Notes: generated by a model not told the origin, from the letters alone. A stretch of DNA of 35,924 nt from Verrucomicrobiales bacterium (GCA_003452185.1 DMJJ01000467.1:1-35924), one strand, 5' to 3'; numbered from the stretch's first letter, positions 27,963 to 32,513 are shown. A program made the numbers and translations.

Positions 27963-28490
27963 TCAGGGGGTGCCGAGCCGATAGAATCTCGCTGCCGGGC
28001 CGGGACCCAGCAGGATGAACCGCACCGAACCATCGTCGTTGACCGCATCCAGGGAGGCCGTCCAGTCGGGAACCGCGAGCCGCGTGGCGACCTGGAGCAC
28101 GTAGCCCGGGAACGCGGAGGGCCAGGAGACCCGCACCGTACCGTCGTCCGAGATCTCAATTTCCAGTCGAGGGGCATCGTCCGGCGGAGGGACAACCACC
28201 GATCCGAAACCGCCACCCAGGCTGAACACGCCGCCCCCCATGGAGACCGCAGGGCCGGGACGAGGATCCCCGGCCCCCAGCGCCAGCCCGCCCCCCGCCG
28301 CACTCACCCCCGGGGTCACGGGGATTTGGGACCAATCGAGGCTCAAGCCCTGCCCGGGGCTGGAGACGGCGCCGGCCGCCATCAGGAGCGTCGTGCACAG
28401 AGCGCGGCGCAGGGTCCAACCGGTGCATTCACCAAGGGGATTCAGCATATGTTCGCCTTTGCAAAGCGGATGGAGTAGAGCCGCGCTCAT
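27963..28490 (-). CDS. Small secreted protein of unknown function with Gly-rich middle and C-terminal ...PDW...RFYRL module
   Basis: Only the 3' third of track ORF 27963..29228 looks real. The ATG at 28490 overlaps the upstream stop (ATGA at 28487-28490); an alternative ATG lies at 28448 (MLNPLGEC...). A signal-like segment is WTLRRALCTTLLMAAGAVSSPGQG. The C-terminus reads TVRVSWPSAFPGYVLQVATRLAVPDWT...GPGPAARFYRLGTP. Confidence 0.6.
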   Translation of the reverse strand: MSAALLHPLCKGEHMLNPLGECTGWTLRRALCTTLLMAAGAVSSPGQGLSLDWSQIPVTPGVSAAGGGLALGAGDPRPGPAVSMGGGVFSLGGGFGSVVVPPPDDAPRLEIEISDDGTVRVSWPSAFPGYVLQVATRLAVPDWTASLDAVNDDGSVRFILLGPGPAARFYRLGTP

Positions 28491-30154
28491 GGGGTCAACC
28501 GCGCCACGCCGGGCTCGGGATAAAGGCCAAAAGGGCTGCCAACCCCCCTCACGAAACGACCCGGCTTGTCCAGCCTCCCGAAACCGGCGTAATTGCCGGA
28601 CGAGAAAAAGACCGTTCCCCCGGGGCAGGCAGCCAGGTACGCGAGGTAGGCAAGGCCTGGCGGCCAGGGGTTGAACTGGCCGCCGCCGGCTCCGATCGCG
28701 GGGGCGTTGACGGAGACCCACTCTTCGAGCCGCCCGGCAGACTCCGTCAGGGGGAATGTCCCGGTTCCACGGGGGGCTACGGACTGCCCCGGGGAGGCGG
28801 TGTAAATCCTGCCGCACGCCCCAAACCAGCGTGCACTGCGGATGGTGACCGACGCGAACTGCCAGTCCGACCCCAACCCGCTTCCATCGTTGAACACGGC
28901 AAGGGACGACAACACAGGACCCAGATCCCCGCTGGGAATCGTGACACAATCGGTGTGCCCGGACTCCATCCGGCTGGCGGGGATGTCGTAGCCCGTCGCG
29001 ACGTGCGCGCTGGTATCCACACGCGCAACCGCACTGCTGGAAGAGGAGGAGAGGGAGAAGCTCAGTGTCGCATCCGTCCCGGCCCCCACGCCGGTGCCGG
29101 TGGTCACCTCGAGAGCGTAGGCTGCCGGCGGGCCGGCGGTGAAGGGGTTCATCGCTGGGGTGGCAATCACGACGTCGGTCCGGGCGAGGACTTTCAGCAG
29201 CAGCGTGGGGAGGTCCTCCTCCTTGCAAATGATGCCGTCAACGCCGGCGTCGATGTAGTAATCCATGTCGTCGGCGGGGATCAGGTAGGCATAGGGGATG
29301 AGCTGAAGGTCGTTGTACGCAGCCCTATGCCAGACGGCGCGGTCGATGCGCCGGGGGAGCGAGGGTGCGTACAGAGCCCCCGGGCCGGCGCTGCTGCCCG
29401 CCCCGTAAGCCACATTGCCCGTGAACCCCAGACTGGAGCGGAAGTAGGTGACCACGTCGTCCACGTTCGGTTCGCCGTCGATCATGAGGGCCTCGTTGGA
29501 CCGAAGGACCGCATGCGGATCGGGCGAGGCCTGGTTGAAGGCGGAAAACAGCCTCCTACCCGAGGCGATGTCGGGGGCGCTCAGAACAATGTTCAGCGGT
29601 GTTGGCAGCCCGTCGTTCAGGTAGGTCCGGACGGCGTTCAGGATGTTGGTGCCGTTGCCGTCGACATCCGCCGGCGTCTTGCAATCGAACACCACCAGGG
29701 CCAGGCCGGCGTAGGCCGGGTTGGAGCCGACGTCGCCCCGCTGCGCGGCGAGCACGTTCGAGTGGAGATCCTTGAGCCAGTCGAGCAGGTAGGTGACCCC
29801 CGAGCACACGCAGCCCGGGACGTCGGTGTCGCAGGTGACCAGATTGCGGCTGTCGGTGGGATCCCCCGAGCAGATGTCGGAGGCGAGGACGCTCACGTCC
29901 GGCTCGAGGGCATTGGCGCCGCGGTTGAGGTCGTCGTGGACGAGCTGGACGGTGTTCGGGTTGTGCCCGAAGATGTAGAACGGACGCCTCGGGGCACCGT
30001 TCAGCGGCTGGCTGGCCTGAAGGGCAAGGCCGGAGAGCAGGACCGCGATCAGCACGACCCCGGGGGTGCGGCCCCGAGGTCTGGCCGCACCTGGGATCGT
30101 GGCGAGAGTGGGATGGGGAGATGAGTTCATGCTGGAGGGGGTGTGGAGCGTCAT
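28487..30154 (-). CDS. Secreted sphingomyelinase-D / phospholipase-D-like (GDPD-fold) enzyme fused to a PLAT/LH2 domain and an unassigned ~115-aa C-terminal region
   Basis: The ATG at 30154 (MTLHTP...) lies 7 nt after the upstream stop; an alternative ATG is at 30130. Signal peptide is GVVLIAVLLSGLALQA. SMaseD-like blocks are RRPFYIFGHNPN, GANALEPDV, LVVFDCKTP, IVLSAPDIA, GVDGIICK and ATPAMNPF. The PLAT block is YALEVTTGTGVGAGTDATLSFSL...MESGHTDCVTIPSGDLGPVLSSLAVFNDGSGLGSDWQFASVTIRS. Confidence 0.7.
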   Translation of the reverse strand: MTLHTPSSMNSSPHPTLATIPGAARPRGRTPGVVLIAVLLSGLALQASQPLNGAPRRPFYIFGHNPNTVQLVHDDLNRGANALEPDVSVLASDICSGDPTDSRNLVTCDTDVPGCVCSGVTYLLDWLKDLHSNVLAAQRGDVGSNPAYAGLALVVFDCKTPADVDGNGTNILNAVRTYLNDGLPTPLNIVLSAPDIASGRRLFSAFNQASPDPHAVLRSNEALMIDGEPNVDDVVTYFRSSLGFTGNVAYGAGSSAGPGALYAPSLPRRIDRAVWHRAAYNDLQLIPYAYLIPADDMDYYIDAGVDGIICKEEDLPTLLLKVLARTDVVIATPAMNPFTAGPPAAYALEVTTGTGVGAGTDATLSFSLSSSSSSAVARVDTSAHVATGYDIPASRMESGHTDCVTIPSGDLGPVLSSLAVFNDGSGLGSDWQFASVTIRSARWFGACGRIYTASPGQSVAPRGTGTFPLTESAGRLEEWVSVNAPAIGAGGGQFNPWPPGLAYLAYLAACPGGTVFFSSGNYAGFGRLDKPGRFVRGVGSPFGLYPEPGVARLTP

Positions 30155-32204: not shown

Positions 32205-32513
32205 GAACGGAAGGGGCTGGCACCCGCCGCACCGTGCAGGGGCATTCCGCACGCACGGCAGGGCCGGAGAGCCGGAGCCGATTCGGAATGGAGGCAGGCA
32301 CGAGGGTGCATTTCACGAACTTCTTACGAATCCGCGGCTCGGAGTTTCGCAGGAAGGTGCACTTTTTTTGCCCGCGGGGAGCTCAGCAAGGTCCGGCTGC
32401 TCCTTTTTCCGCCAGAAGGAGGGCGATTCTCACAAGAACCCCCCGGATCGCCCGGAAGGTGTCTCCCCGGAGGAACCTGGAATCTTCCGACCCGAGGGCG
32501 GCCGTCTCAGCAG

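What the first reader, a model, noticed from the sequence alone, without database searches (positions are those of the whole stretch)
27963..32348. Candidate undescribed secreted module (S74 tail-fibre protein + SMaseD-like/PLAT enzyme + small secreted protein) directly upstream of, and co-directional with, an ECF sigma / WD40 Ser-Thr kinase pair
Three signal-peptide proteins are packed as one translationally coupled unit. The gap between fibre stop 30162 and enzyme ATG 30154 is 7 nt, and the ATGA overlap at 28487-28490 joins the enzyme to the small protein. A roughly 300-nt non-coding leader precedes the unit. An ECF sigma gene follows 71 nt downstream, and its kinase follows 12-27 nt after that.

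None of the partners belongs to a pathway I know. A trimeric phage-like fibre that self-processes through an S74 chaperone domain, together with a membrane-lipid-attacking enzyme carrying a PLAT targeting domain, resembles a surface-displayed or released cell-targeting device (adhesion fibre plus lytic effector). The extracytoplasmic-propeller kinase and ECF sigma are a plausible dedicated sensor and regulator. No phage, T6SS, or other known secretion or toxin-immunity genes are adjacent.
Basis: partly seen in the sequence, partly recalled or inferred. Interest (0 to 1): 0.8.

Follow-up and report, generated by a model that had tools for sequence, protein, structure and literature searches.

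The report
Fibre-plus-lipid-enzyme cassette with its own kinase switch
A soil or freshwater Verrucomicrobia-like bacterium carries a conserved, uncharacterised gene cassette: a phage-style surface fibre, a spider-venom-type lipid-cleaving enzyme and a small partner protein, next to a receptor kinase and sigma factor that probably switch it on.

Summary
Five co-directional minus-strand genes sit at the stated coordinates.

- **Fibre (32204-30162):** a true S74 protein with its Ser556/Lys561 dyad.
- **Enzyme (30154-28487):** a GDPD-like SMase D/PLD domain (profile against spider toxins, E=3e-30; Foldseek TM 0.74), then a PLAT domain and a roughly 75-aa C-terminal module.
- **Small protein:** belongs to a large family that follows such fibres.

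Fibre then enzyme recurs in four independent Verrucomicrobiota loci. The ECF sigma/kinase pair is attached in three of them, each time in a different gene order.

The base unit is fibre plus small protein: 26 of 29 metagenome loci with enough flank have both. The enzyme fills a variable cargo slot, which elsewhere holds S53 or S8 proteases or unknown proteins carrying the same C-terminal module.

Caveats: the window enzyme lacks the second catalytic His. The route to the cell surface, the target and the regulation are all inferred. No paper in the searched library describes this cassette.

I rate it a real, apparently undescribed variant built from known parts. Interest is about 0.6.

The parts
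32205..32550 (-). 346-nt non-coding spacer upstream of the fibre gene. It contains a 28-nt stretch (32326-32299, TAAGAAGTTCGTGAAATGCACCCTCGTG) that resembles sequence upstream of the fibre genes in L004 and L010.
   Evidence: Sequence. No Rfam family matches. Folding is not unusual, z=-0.85. No sigma-70-like promoter was found. The resemblance was seen by eye and was not recovered by k-mer enumeration across 11 loci, so it is only anecdotal.
30162..32204 (-). Secreted fibre protein, 680 aa. Signal peptide aa 1-48. Conserved N-terminal beta-sandwich domain aa 49-145 (32060-31770), starting GTAFTYQG directly after the signal peptide. Shaft with three G-x-[VL]-[GA]-[IV]-G-T repeat motifs at aa 219, 333 and 445. 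S74 intramolecular chaperone domain with Ser556/Lys561, then a coiled coil, aa 546-670 (30569-30195).
   Evidence: Pfam PF13884, E=2.6e-12, 47.3 bits against a cut-off of 22. S556 and K561 are invariant in 35 homologues. In the AF2 model only aa 50-143 and 557-670 are confident. PHROG tail-fibre matches mostly cover the C-terminal S74-containing part; one extends from aa 299. At least 496 homologous clusters exist, named 'tail fiber domain-containing protein' by NCBI, mostly from Verrucomicrobia. Repeat motifs.
28487..30154 (-). Secreted enzyme, 555 aa. Signal peptide about aa 1-49. GDPD-like SMase D/PLD TIM-barrel aa 55-338 (29992-29141). PLAT/LH2 domain aa 343-470 (29128-28745). C-terminal module of about 75 aa, aa 475-555 (28732-28490), related to the N-terminal cap of DUF1565 beta-helix domains.
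   Evidence: The family profile against PDB hits spider SicTox PLDs at E=3e-30 and the coral lipoxygenase PLAT domain at E=3e-8. The window protein alone hits 3RLH at E=3e-13. The AF2 model has pLDDT 79. Foldseek returns 4rw3/3rlh/1xx1 at E about 3e-13 and TM 0.74, plus A. haemolyticum PLD, lipoxygenase PLAT domains and C. perfringens alpha-toxin. H64, E84, D86, D157 and K159 are invariant; the position of His47 holds no His. C-terminal module.
27963..28490 (-). Small secreted protein, 175 aa from the ATGA-overlap ATG or 161 aa from the ATG at 28448. It has a signal peptide, a degenerate Gly-rich hairpin motif ending GGGF, and a roughly 70-aa C-terminal domain ending RFYRL. It is the conserved downstream partner of this fibre family.
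   Evidence: It matches a profile built without it (A4) at 65.8 bits over aa 30-173. The same family follows S74 fibres in L004, L019, L095 and L096. At least 527 relatives occur in metagenomes, and 26 of 29 loci with at least 2.5 kb upstream have a fibre-type or module-bearing gene upstream on the same strand. There is only a weak Fn3-like similarity in PDB, E about 0.2. No Pfam or NCBIfam hit.
27901..27971 (-). Two-tier GC-rich hairpin followed by UUUUU. It overlaps the small-gene stop codon and ends 10 nt before the sigma ATG, so it looks like an intrinsic terminator or attenuator.
   Evidence: RNA fold -42.4 kcal/mol, z=-2.5, and 0 of 200 shuffles fold as well. The simple terminator scan did not list it. 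Its function is inferred.
27133..27891 (-). ECF-type sigma factor, 252 aa, with a long sigma2-sigma4 linker and no adjacent anti-sigma gene.
   Evidence: Sigma70_r2 scores 25.4 bits against a cut-off of 24. Sigma70_r4_2 (21.9 bits) and Sigma70_ECF are below their cut-offs. TIGR02937 gives E=3.8e-9, below its curated cut-off. Orthologues lie next to the cassette in L004 (38% identity) and L019.
23665..27120 (-). Receptor-type Hanks Ser/Thr kinase, 1151 aa. N-terminal Cys-rich motif, kinase domain aa 58-340, one transmembrane helix around aa 350-372, then WD40 beta-propellers aa 447-1130, predicted to be extracytoplasmic.
   Evidence: Pkinase E=6.7e-40 and WD40 E=1.2e-59. There is a single hydrophobic segment after the kinase domain, as in the cassette-linked kinases of L004 (LRR), L019, L010 (WD40) and L009 (TPR).

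Best explanation
The locus is one instance of a conserved cassette found in Verrucomicrobiota and Planctomycetota: fibre, cargo enzyme and small partner protein, with a sigma/kinase switch attached.

**Shown**
- The five genes and their domain identities.
- The cassette recurs in unrelated loci.
- The fibre + small-protein pair is the constant core.
- The gene between them is variable. Here it is an SMase D/PLD-like + PLAT enzyme. Elsewhere it is an S53 or S8 protease or an unknown protein.
- These variable genes share a roughly 75-aa C-terminal module.
- A single-pass receptor Ser/Thr kinase, with or without an ECF sigma, is attached to cargo-bearing cassettes.

**Inferred mechanism**
1. An extracytoplasmic cue is read by the WD40 ectodomain of the kinase.
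2. The kinase activates the ECF sigma by phosphorylation, as PknS does to EcfK and PknT does to EcfP.
3. The sigma drives the promoter in the 346-nt leader. Read-through past the hairpin feeds sigma and kinase expression back.
4. Fibre, enzyme and small protein cross the inner membrane through Sec.
5. The fibre trimerises with the help of its S74 domain, which then cuts itself off at Ser556.
6. The mature fibre is displayed or released together with the small Fn3-like protein.
7. The enzyme associates with it through the shared C-terminal module.
8. The fibre tip binds a foreign surface and the PLAT domain docks the enzyme onto that membrane. The SMase D-like domain then removes or cyclises the head groups of lyso- or sphingo-phospholipids. 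This damages or digests the target envelope, for defence or for feeding.
For: - **Domain identities:**
- **Tight gene packing:** 7-nt gap and ATGA overlap. In L130 the fibre and its cargo gene overlap by 4 nt.
- **Fibre then enzyme adjacency:** seen in the window, L001-3, L004-6/L015 and L019. The sigma and kinase occur in three different gene orders: fibre-enzyme-small-sigma-kinase, sigma-kinase-fibre-enzyme-small, and fibre-sigma-kinase-fibre-enzyme-small.
- **Second cassette version:** same N-terminal fibre domain with a different C-terminal domain, plus a roughly 790-aa protein and the enzyme, in Phycisphaerae and other loci.
- **Small protein follows fibres without any enzyme:** L095 and L096, and 26 of 29 metagenome loci.
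- **Other cargo:** genes carrying the same C-terminal module lie directly upstream of the small gene in 8 loci, including S53 (L133, L137) and S8 (L175, L178) proteases.
- **Module specificity:** within the 93 loci held at that point, an HMM of the module hit only cassette genes.
- **Kinase linkage:** a kinase lies within the flank in 6 of 12 cargo-bearing cassettes against 1 of 22 cargo-less pairs, a hand count of loci from the earlier calls. Fisher p=0.004. All five linked kinases have one transmembrane helix.
- **No cargo-specific immunity gene:** consistent with a substrate that the producer lacks.
- **Precedent:** kinase-to-ECF sigma signalling that switches on an anti-amoeba weapon (PMC13147305).
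- **Not phage-borne:** the enzyme and small-protein families were not found in IMG/VR viral contigs.
Against: - There are no expression, localisation or activity data.
- The window enzyme lacks the second catalytic histidine. Spider His47 aligns with N104 or with C108/D109, although the L004 orthologue keeps it. The enzyme may therefore be inactive or work differently.
- No route across the outer membrane is evident.
- The fibre shaft could not be modelled, and Foldseek found nothing significant.
- The core of the C-terminal module matches more than 1000 representative proteins. Most are giant repeat proteins in which it is the N-terminal cap of DUF1565 beta-helix domains. It is therefore not a dedicated docking tag by sequence alone, and docking to the fibre is untested.
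- The sigma keeps the acidic DxxD of region 2.2, unlike ECF43 sigmas (sequence; PMC13147305).
- A terminator-like hairpin lies between the trio and sigma.
- Half of the cargo-bearing cassettes show no kinase in the available flank. Flank lengths differ between the compared sets.
- No shared promoter motif could be established.
Confidence: 0.45

Rival explanations
1. Co-regulated secreted proteins with no physical coupling. The fibre/small pair is an ordinary surface adhesin. The enzyme, and the proteases found elsewhere, are freely released scavenging exoenzymes that harvest phosphate, head groups or peptides from environmental biomass. The shared C-terminal module is only a folding or sorting element.
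For: - The cargo types are typical degradative exoenzymes: a phosphodiesterase and S8/S53 proteases.
- There is no immunity gene.
- A purple-acid-phosphatase-like gene and peptide ABC transporters lie just downstream in the window. A Phosphodiest/Sulfatase gene lies near the L004 cassette.
- The core of the module is a common beta-helix cap motif.
Against: - It does not explain why cargo genes are inserted precisely between the fibre gene and its partner, with gaps or overlaps of -4 to 33 nt.
- It does not explain why the module was found only in cassette genes, and in none of the roughly 60 enzyme-selected loci that lack fibres.
- Homologues of the enzyme that have no fibre nearby also lack the module.
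Confidence: 0.3
2. The enzyme in this window is a catalytically dead or re-purposed lipid-binding subunit. Its PLAT domain and degenerate SMase D barrel would only target the fibre to membranes.
For: - The second catalytic His is absent in the window protein and in P0002. The corresponding position holds N, S, D or W in other members.
- The plug motif is degenerate: IATPAMNPF against the family consensus LATRxDNPF.
- The window protein itself falls below the Pfam thresholds.
Against: - H64, the three metal ligands E84/D86/D157, and K159 are invariant across all 16 family members. That argues for a retained active site.
- An Asp (D109) lies where a general base is needed.
- Orthologues in the same cassette type keep the His (P0004).
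Confidence: 0.15
3. A self-directed envelope function. The ECF/kinase pair senses envelope stress, and the enzyme remodels the producer's own outer-membrane lipids while the fibre reinforces or decorates the surface.
For: - ECF sigma factors classically answer envelope stress. The PknT/EcfP pair of V. parahaemolyticus is the studied example (stated from my own knowledge and from the citation in PMC13147305).
- All products are exported into the producer's own envelope.
Against: - The SMase D/PLD family is a family of secreted toxins and exoenzymes (PMC6299612).
- PLAT domains target enzymes to foreign or other membranes, as in alpha-toxin and lipoxygenases.
- Interchangeable protease cargo does not fit lipid remodelling.
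Confidence: 0.07
4. A decaying remnant of a prophage tail-fibre module, or a chance neighbourhood, with no joint function.
For: - S74 is best known from phage tail fibres and tailspikes. PHROG tail-fibre families match the fibre.
- An integrase and a Phage_tail_beta protein lie near one related locus, L011.
Against: - There are no phage genes in the 36-kb window.
- All reading frames are intact and have host-like GC3.
- The proteins have Sec signal peptides, which phage fibres lack.
- The arrangement is conserved across phyla at 32-54% protein identity.
- The enzyme and small-protein families were not found in viral contigs.
Confidence: 0.03

Closest known systems
GDPD-like sphingomyelinase D / phospholipase D toxins (sicariid spider SicTox such as PDB 3RLH and 1XX1; Corynebacterium and Arcanobacterium PLD; the 'basal' bacterial members with C-terminal PLAT repeats in Cordes & Binford 2018, PMC6299612)
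   Same: - TIM-barrel fold.
- First catalytic His, the Mg2+ ligands (Glu, Asp, Asp) and the Lys.
- C-terminal plug motif.
- Signal peptide.
- In the basal members, a fused PLAT domain.
   Different: - The second catalytic His is absent in the window protein.
- There is an extra C-terminal module resembling a beta-helix cap.
- The gene is embedded between a fibre gene and that fibre's partner gene, under a sigma/kinase pair.
- The host is a free-living bacterium of the Planctomycetota-Verrucomicrobiota group.
Phage tail fibres and tailspikes with a C-terminal intramolecular chaperone domain (Peptidase_S74: K1F endosialidase, T5 L-shaped fibre) and the eukaryotic MYRF protein
   Same: - S74 domain with a Ser-Lys dyad at the C-terminal end of a repetitive fibre, followed by a coiled coil.
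- Trimerisation followed by self-cleavage is expected, from what is established about this family.
   Different: - It has a Sec signal peptide.
- It is chromosomal, with no virion genes nearby.
- It has a constant N-terminal beta-sandwich domain instead of a baseplate adaptor.
- It belongs to a family of at least 496 clusters in Verrucomicrobia with swappable middle domains: FG-GAP, RCC1, BNR, collagen, YadA-head.
ECF sigma factors activated by a Ser/Thr kinase: PknS/EcfK of Xanthomonas citri (switches on a T6SS against amoebae; PMC13147305) and PknT/EcfP of Vibrio parahaemolyticus (group ECF43); other kinase-linked groups are ECF59-62, 217, 267 and 283 (PMC7826278)
   Same: - A single-pass receptor Hanks kinase encoded next to an ECF sigma.
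- No anti-sigma gene.
- The pair lies next to genes for an extracellular apparatus.
   Different: - Region 2.2 of the sigma keeps acidic residues (EDAKDLTQG) instead of the uncharged QTTA motif of ECF43.
- The ectodomains are WD40, LRR or TPR repeats.
- The regulated genes are a fibre cassette, not a T6SS.
- Phosphorylation is untested.
Constant carrier plus interchangeable cargo systems: branched phage receptor-binding complexes in which enzymatic tailspikes dock on an anchor fibre, and T6SS or eCIS cargo recognised through shared adaptor domains (comparison from my own knowledge)
   Same: - A constant structural gene is followed by a variable enzyme gene.
- The alternative cargo proteins share one short module.
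   Different: - There is no sheath, tube, baseplate or virion.
- Everything is exported by Sec.
- The shared module is C-terminal and related to a beta-helix cap.
- Physical docking has not been shown.
Clostridium perfringens alpha-toxin (a phospholipase C with a PLAT-like C-terminal domain)
   Same: A lipid head-group-cleaving catalytic domain fused to a PLAT-type membrane-docking domain (Foldseek hits 2wxt and 1kho).
   Different: The catalytic fold is unrelated: a zinc phospholipase C rather than a GDPD-like barrel. Alpha-toxin is a stand-alone toxin gene.

Membership tests
Peptidase_S74 / intramolecular chaperone tail-fibre proteins | Match to PF13884 above the gathering score | tested here: met
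   47.3 bits against a cut-off of 22, E=2.6e-12, aa 556-606.
Peptidase_S74 / intramolecular chaperone tail-fibre proteins | Catalytic Ser-Lys dyad (Ser, then Lys five residues later) | tested here: met
   TS556DRNAK561. Both residues are invariant in 35 aligned homologues.
Peptidase_S74 / intramolecular chaperone tail-fibre proteins | Trimerisation-dependent self-cleavage that releases the C-terminal domain | not testable with these tools
   Needs protein expression and mass spectrometry. The monomer AF2 model is confident only for the N-terminal domain and the S74/coiled-coil part.
GDPD-like SMase D / PLD | TIM-barrel catalytic domain homologous to the SicTox and actinobacterial PLDs | tested here: met
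   Profile against 3RLH, E=3e-30. Single sequence, E=3e-13. Foldseek E=3e-13, TM 0.74 relative to the target; A. haemolyticum PLD 9yd8 is also hit.
GDPD-like SMase D / PLD | First catalytic His, the Mg2+ ligands (Glu32, Asp34, Asp91) and Lys93 | tested here: met
   H64, E84, D86, D157 and K159 are invariant in 16 family members and align with the spider residues.
GDPD-like SMase D / PLD | Second catalytic His (His47, the general base; PMC11945750) | tested here: not met
   The window segment reads SRN104LVTC108D109TD. His47 aligns with N104 in the phmmer alignment or with D109 in the MAFFT alignment. A His is present in P0004, P0009, P0010 and P0013-16.
GDPD-like SMase D / PLD | C-terminal plug motif (ATxxDNPW), the signature that separates this family from GDPDs (PMC6299612) | tested here: inconclusive
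   The family consensus LATRxDNPF fits the motif. The window reads IATPAMNPF: Ala, Thr, Asn, Pro and the aromatic residue are kept, but the Asp is replaced by Met.
GDPD-like SMase D / PLD | Head-group cleavage or cyclisation of sphingomyelin or lysophospholipids | not testable with these tools
   Needs an enzyme assay (31P-NMR or mass spectrometry).
PLAT / LH2 domain | Beta-sandwich homologous to the lipoxygenase and polycystin PLAT domains | tested here: met
   The window sequence alone is below the Pfam reporting limit. However, 13 of 15 homologues carry PF01477, the profile hits the coral lipoxygenase PLAT domain at E=3e-8, and Foldseek aligns about 133 residues at rmsd about 3 A.
ECF43-type kinase-activated sigma factors | ECF sigma (sigma2 + sigma4) encoded next to a Hanks kinase, with no anti-sigma gene | tested here: met
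   Sigma70_r2 is above its cut-off; r4_2 is just below. The kinase starts 12 nt downstream. No anti-sigma-like ORF is present. The pair is conserved in L004 and L019.
ECF43-type kinase-activated sigma factors | Region 2.2 has lost the acidic DxxD and carries the conserved phospho-Thr (QTTA motif; PMC13147305) | tested here: not met
   The window reads EDAKDLTQGFF and L004 reads HDAEDLTQGFF, so the acidic residues are retained. I therefore do not file it as ECF43. It is a kinase-linked ECF sigma of another, undetermined group.
Trimeric autotransporter adhesins (the JGI name for some fibre homologues) | C-terminal YadA-type beta-barrel membrane anchor | tested here: not met
   The C-terminus is S74 plus a coiled coil, with no YadA_anchor match. 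Only some homologues have YadA-head-like repeats (PF05658).
Contractile or phage-tail-like systems (T6SS, eCIS, tailocins) | Sheath, tube and baseplate genes in the neighbourhood | tested here: not met
   Pfam on the large ORFs of the 36-kb window finds none.
Polymorphic toxin-immunity modules | A cargo-specific immunity gene immediately downstream of the toxin | tested here: not met
   The downstream small protein belongs to one family whatever the cargo, and is present even when there is no cargo.

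The most novel reading that the evidence does not exclude
The cassette would be a previously unrecognised kind of bacterial surface apparatus in Verrucomicrobiota and Planctomycetota. A Sec-exported, self-processing trimeric fibre, built on a constant N-terminal domain, would carry interchangeable degradative enzymes (lipid phosphodiesterase, S8/S53 proteases and others). The enzymes would dock through a shared C-terminal fragment of a beta-helix cap, with a small Fn3-like protein as adaptor or anchor. A dedicated receptor kinase/ECF sigma pair would deploy it on contact with prey, predators or particulate food. In effect it would be a cell-borne analogue of a phage enzymatic tailspike array.
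Probability: 0.3. Interest if true: 0.85.

Novelty: new variant of a known kind. Interest (0 to 1): 0.6.

Why it matters
Verrucomicrobiota and Planctomycetota are abundant in soil and water but little studied. How they interact with other cells and with particles is largely unknown.

This analysis turns hundreds of 'tail fiber domain-containing' and 'hypothetical' genes into a defined cassette with a testable logic: a constant fibre and partner protein, a variable enzyme slot, and a kinase/sigma switch.

If the fibre does carry the enzymes, this would be a new way for bacteria to display or deliver hydrolases. It would also give a bacterial, non-venom context for the SMase D/PLD toxin family, whose deep history is debated (PMC6299612). 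And it would offer a natural system for studying ECF sigma factors controlled by Ser/Thr kinases with WD40, LRR or TPR ectodomains.

Tried and rejected
- **Peptidase_G2 guess.** I suspected that the alternative fibre C-terminal domain (GGADLAEPF...) was a Peptidase_G2-type chaperone. Pfam, NCBIfam and PHROG give no support, and neither does a PDB profile search. I dropped the idea.
- **Shared promoter.** I looked for a shared ECF-type promoter. A stretch resembling TTCGTGAAA...CCTCG is shared by the window, L004 and L010. An enumeration of 9-mers over 11 upstream regions found no common motif, and the sigma-70 scan found nothing.
- **RNA element in the leader.** No Rfam family matches and the folding is unremarkable.
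- **Fibre structure.** The AF2 model is poor for the shaft (mean pLDDT 53). Foldseek gave no match below E=0.01. The N-terminal domain is only generically like an Ig or Cna-B fold.
- **PDB profile searches.** The small protein gave only a weak Fn3 similarity, E about 0.2. The C-terminal module gave E of 0.015 or worse, with weak hits to beta-helix lyase caps at E about 0.4.
- **Module as a unique tag.** I first treated the C-terminal module as a tag specific to this cassette. An exhaustive search found its core in more than 1000 representative proteins. In the three large proteins I checked with Pfam it lies at the start of DUF1565 beta-helix domains. I weakened the claim to a stand-alone C-terminal fragment of a common motif that is linked to the cassette.
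- **Defence-system reading.** PADLOC matches only the generic kinase domain.
- **Phage origin.** The enzyme and small-protein families were not found in IMG/VR contigs.
- **Simple insertion.** I asked whether the five genes are a simple insertion next to hisG-TPR-DUF2203. The related contig L096 shares that block but diverges right after it, so the question stays open.

Full report

Yes. On the minus strand the window holds five co-directional genes:
- a 680-aa ORF (ATG 32204, stop 30162);
- a 555-aa ORF (ATG 30154, stop 28487);
- a 175-aa ORF (ATG 28490, stop 27963);
- a 252-aa ORF (27891-27133);
- an 1151-aa ORF (27120-23665).

The 7-nt gap between the first two genes, the ATGA overlap at 28490-28487, the 71-nt and 12-nt spacers, and a 346-nt upstream spacer are all present. 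GC3 of 0.84-0.87 supports the fibre, enzyme and kinase frames; the small and sigma frames did not appear in that filtered list.

One correction. Public gene calls on identical DNA from other metagenomes start the small gene at the next ATG (window 28448; 161 aa; 38-nt gap). The overlap is therefore a possible start, not a proven one.

The fibre and the enzyme each have a clear signal-peptide hydrophobic core at aa 30-48. The small protein has a weaker one.

The rest of the 36-kb window is ordinary chromosome: hisG, hom, thrC-like, ABC transporters, glycosidases and a tRNA. There are no phage, T6SS or eCIS genes.

**2. What are the three proteins?**

*The fibre.* It matches Peptidase_S74 well above threshold, at aa 556-606. 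It keeps the Ser556/Lys561 dyad, which is invariant in 35 homologues. A long coiled coil follows the S74 domain.

Directly after the signal peptide comes a roughly 100-aa beta-sandwich domain that starts GTAFTYQG. AF2 models it confidently, but it has no significant structural relative. The shaft contains three G-x-[VL]-[GA]-[IV]-G-T fibre motifs spaced about 112 aa apart.

This is a member of a very large family, with at least 496 clusters at 90% identity. NCBI calls them 'tail fiber domain-containing protein', and they come mostly from Verrucomicrobia. The N-terminal domain and the S74 end are constant. The middle varies: FG-GAP, RCC1, BNR/Sortilin, collagen, YadA-head or beta-helix.

*The enzyme.* The window protein has no Pfam hit of its own, but its homologues carry PLAT, GDPD, GDPD_2 and SMase_D_PLipase_D. 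A profile of the family hits the spider SMase D/PLD toxins at E=3e-30, over the whole barrel including the C-terminal plug. It hits the lipoxygenase PLAT domain at E=3e-8. The AF2 model (pLDDT 79) superposes on 4rw3, 3rlh and 1xx1 with TM 0.74. It also finds A. haemolyticum PLD, lipoxygenase PLAT domains and C. perfringens alpha-toxin.

That architecture is not new in itself. Cordes & Binford (PMC6299612) reported basal bacterial members of the family with C-terminal PLAT repeats.

The active site is only partly canonical. H64, E84, D86, D157 and K159 correspond to His12, Glu32, Asp34, Asp91 and Lys93, and they are invariant. The second histidine, His47, is the general base in the cyclisation mechanism (PMC11945750). 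It has no counterpart in the window protein: it aligns with N104 or D109, depending on the alignment. The orthologue in the L004 cassette keeps it. Activity is plausible, since an Asp is available, but not assured.

*The small protein.* It has no Pfam, NCBIfam or PHROG hit. It does match, at 65.8 bits, a profile built from four proteins that lie downstream of S74 fibres in other loci. The family has:
- a signal peptide;
- a Gly-rich motif (YSIDW..GGGGTS.GG.Y...GTIGQ......GGFW), which is degenerate in the window copy;
- a roughly 70-aa C-terminal domain ending FYRL, with only a faint resemblance to Fn3.

**3. Does the neighbourhood recur?**

*Fibre next to enzyme.* The closest enzyme homologues lie immediately downstream of an S74 fibre with the same N-terminal domain in three loci:
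- L001-3 (54% identity);
- L004-6/L015, a Verrucomicrobiota genome bin;
- L019, another Verrucomicrobia bin.

*Sigma and kinase.* L004 and L019 also carry the small protein, an orthologous ECF sigma and a receptor kinase, but in different orders. The window has fibre-enzyme-small-sigma-kinase. L004 has sigma-kinase-fibre-enzyme-small. L019 has fibre-sigma-kinase-fibre-enzyme-small. Linkage that survives rearrangement is good evidence for a functional tie.

*A second version.* In Phycisphaerae and other loci (L007, L008, L010, L011, L014 and L037) the cassette has:
- a fibre with a different, highly conserved C-terminal domain, carrying the same N-terminal domain in L008 and L010;
- a roughly 790-aa unknown protein;
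- the enzyme;
- often a larger protein with the same N- and C-terminal modules as the small protein.

A kinase is adjacent in L010 and L008/9.

*More distant homologues.* SMase D-PLAT homologues in Actinobacteria, Acidobacteria, Myxococcota and Bacteroidota mostly have no fibre gene next to them. A few (L024, L046, L063 and L064) have a gene with the alternative fibre C-terminal domain nearby.

**4. The wider pattern**

Three fibre homologues picked for their long contigs show the fibre in ordinary contexts. Two of the three are followed directly by a small-protein gene, with no enzyme between.

A metagenome scan with the small-protein profile found at least 527 relatives. Of the 29 loci that had at least 2.5 kb of upstream sequence, 26 had a gene with the N-terminal fibre domain, the S74 domain or the C-terminal module upstream on the same strand. 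The fibre + small-protein pair is therefore the core unit.

In 8 of the 80 loci, a different gene sits between the fibre and the small gene. These are S53 sedolisins (L133, L137), S8 subtilases (L175, L178) or unknown proteins (L130, L154, L176). All end in the same roughly 75-aa module that ends the SMase D-PLAT enzyme, the 790-aa protein and an S53 protease in L008.

L130 has the layout of the window with another cargo: kinase, S74 fibre, a 360-aa module-bearing gene that overlaps the fibre stop by 4 nt, and then the small gene. The enzyme thus occupies a variable cargo slot.

An exhaustive profile search tempered this result. The core of the module is homologous to the N-terminal cap of DUF1565-type right-handed beta-helix domains, and it occurs in more than 1000 representative proteins, most of them giant repeat proteins. 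Only a small set of shorter proteins of roughly 220-540 aa have it as a complete, stand-alone C-terminal module. Within the 93 loci held when I ran the module HMM, it hit only cassette genes.

**5. Regulation**

The kinase is a single-pass receptor Hanks kinase. It has an N-terminal Cys motif, a kinase domain, one transmembrane helix around aa 350-372 and WD40 propellers. The other cassette-linked kinases are built the same way, with an LRR, WD40 or TPR ectodomain where this was determined.

A kinase is present within the available flank in 6 of 12 independent cargo-bearing cassettes, against 1 of 22 cargo-less fibre/small pairs. Fisher p=0.004. Flank lengths are unequal, so this is only suggestive.

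Kinase-linked ECF sigmas are a known class: ECF43, ECF59-62, 217, 267 and 283 (PMC7826278). In X. citri, PknS phosphorylates EcfK and thereby switches on a T6SS that protects against amoebae (PMC13147305). The window sigma keeps the acidic DxxD in region 2.2, so it is not a typical ECF43. Its long linker could be the site of phosphorylation; that is inference.

A two-tier hairpin followed by U5 ends 10 nt before the sigma start codon. That leaves no room for a promoter between them. Sigma and kinase are most simply transcribed by attenuated read-through from the cassette, or from a promoter inside the small gene; this too is inference. I could not define a shared promoter.

**6. Most likely mechanism, and rivals**

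I commit, at confidence 0.45, to an inducible, fibre-associated exoenzyme cassette:
1. A signal is read by the ectodomain of the kinase.
2. The kinase activates the sigma.
3. The sigma drives transcription of the cassette.
4. Fibre, enzyme and small protein are exported through Sec.
5. The fibre trimerises with the help of its S74 domain, which then cleaves itself off.
6. The fibre and the small protein form a surface or released structure.
7. Cargo associates with it through the shared module.
8. The PLAT domain docks the enzyme on the bound membrane, and the enzyme attacks lipid head groups.

The conserved anatomy is shown. Every step from export onward is inferred.

The main rival, at 0.3, keeps the co-regulation but denies physical coupling: an adhesin plus free scavenging enzymes. 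Lesser rivals are a catalytically dead lipid-binding subunit (0.15, and not exclusive of the others), self-directed envelope remodelling (0.07) and a phage remnant or chance neighbourhood (0.03).

The absence of a cargo-specific immunity gene argues against a classical antibacterial toxin-immunity module. It fits either a substrate that the producer lacks or a nutritional role.

**7. Novelty**

Each part belongs to a known family. The cassette as a whole is a constant fibre and partner protein, a variable slot for a module-bearing enzyme, and a receptor kinase/ECF sigma. I found it described in none of the papers searched. It fails the defining tests for trimeric autotransporters, contractile systems and toxin-immunity modules.

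I rate it a new variant of known kinds. Its logic resembles that of phage enzymatic fibre arrays and of carrier/cargo systems. I give 0.3 probability that it is a distinct surface-display or delivery apparatus.

Noticed in passing
window 27901-27971 (minus strand): A 13-bp GC hairpin nested in a CCCCC/GGGGG outer stem and followed by UUUUU. It overlaps the stop codon of the small gene and ends 10 nt before the sigma ATG, so it looks like a terminator or attenuator. The simple terminator scan did not report it.
   Followed up: partly
window 32507-32523: A C8/G9 palindrome (CCCCCCCCGGGGGGGGG) lies just after the stop of the DUF2203 gene. It may be a hairpin or a slippage-prone homopolymer pair.
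   Followed up: no
window 32299-32326; L004 about 8120-8150; L010 about 5730-5770: A stretch resembling AAGTTCGTGAAAY(N4-7)CCTCG lies 75-140 nt upstream of the fibre start codon in three cassettes from different organisms. A k-mer enumeration over 11 loci did not recover it, so it may be chance.
   Followed up: partly
window 3198-3269 (minus strand): A tRNA gene, the only Rfam match in the window.
   Followed up: no
L007 / L017 9995-11425: In the Phycisphaerales locus the enzyme ORF stops right after the PLAT domain, and the C-terminal module continues in the next ORF (11168-11425). This suggests a frameshift, a pseudogene or an assembly error.
   Followed up: no
L010 5880-7580; L007 6439-7581; L008 11011-12789; L011 237-4589; L014 3652-5160: An alternative fibre C-terminal domain of about 145 aa (GGADLAEPF...LVLVSLQ) is 70-78% identical across loci and takes the place of S74. 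It has no Pfam, NCBIfam, PHROG or PDB relative. It may be a second type of fibre chaperone or anchor domain.
   Followed up: partly
L010 7611-9992; L007 7607-9976; L008 5712-8465; L011 4620-7319; L014 5120-7651; L037 4127-6859: A conserved family of roughly 790-900-aa secreted proteins has no detectable known domain. Members end in the same C-terminal module as the enzyme and lie directly upstream of the enzyme in the second cassette version.
   Followed up: partly
proteins P0235 and P0238: These fibre homologues combine VgrG domains (Phage_base_V, Phage_GPD, Gp5_trimer_C) with a C-terminal S74 domain. That would be a T6SS spike protein with an intramolecular chaperone.
   Followed up: no
L096 3363-11902: A related genome shares the hisG-TPR-DUF2203 block of the window. 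Beyond DUF2203 it has NfeD and flotillin genes, and it carries a different fibre (FG-GAP, S74) + small-protein pair on the other side of hisG. Fibre cassettes therefore appear to be variable, accessory content near a conserved block.
   Followed up: partly
L013 1317-3476: A protein with the eCIS_core domain (PF13699) lies about 6 kb from a variant of the enzyme that has HYR domains in addition to PLAT, downstream of a relative of the 790-aa family.
   Followed up: no
window 21878-23560 (minus strand); L004 13599-14906: A secreted purple-acid-phosphatase-like gene follows the kinase in the window, and a Phosphodiest/Sulfatase gene lies near the L004 cassette. This could hint at phosphate scavenging, or it could be coincidence.
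   Followed up: no
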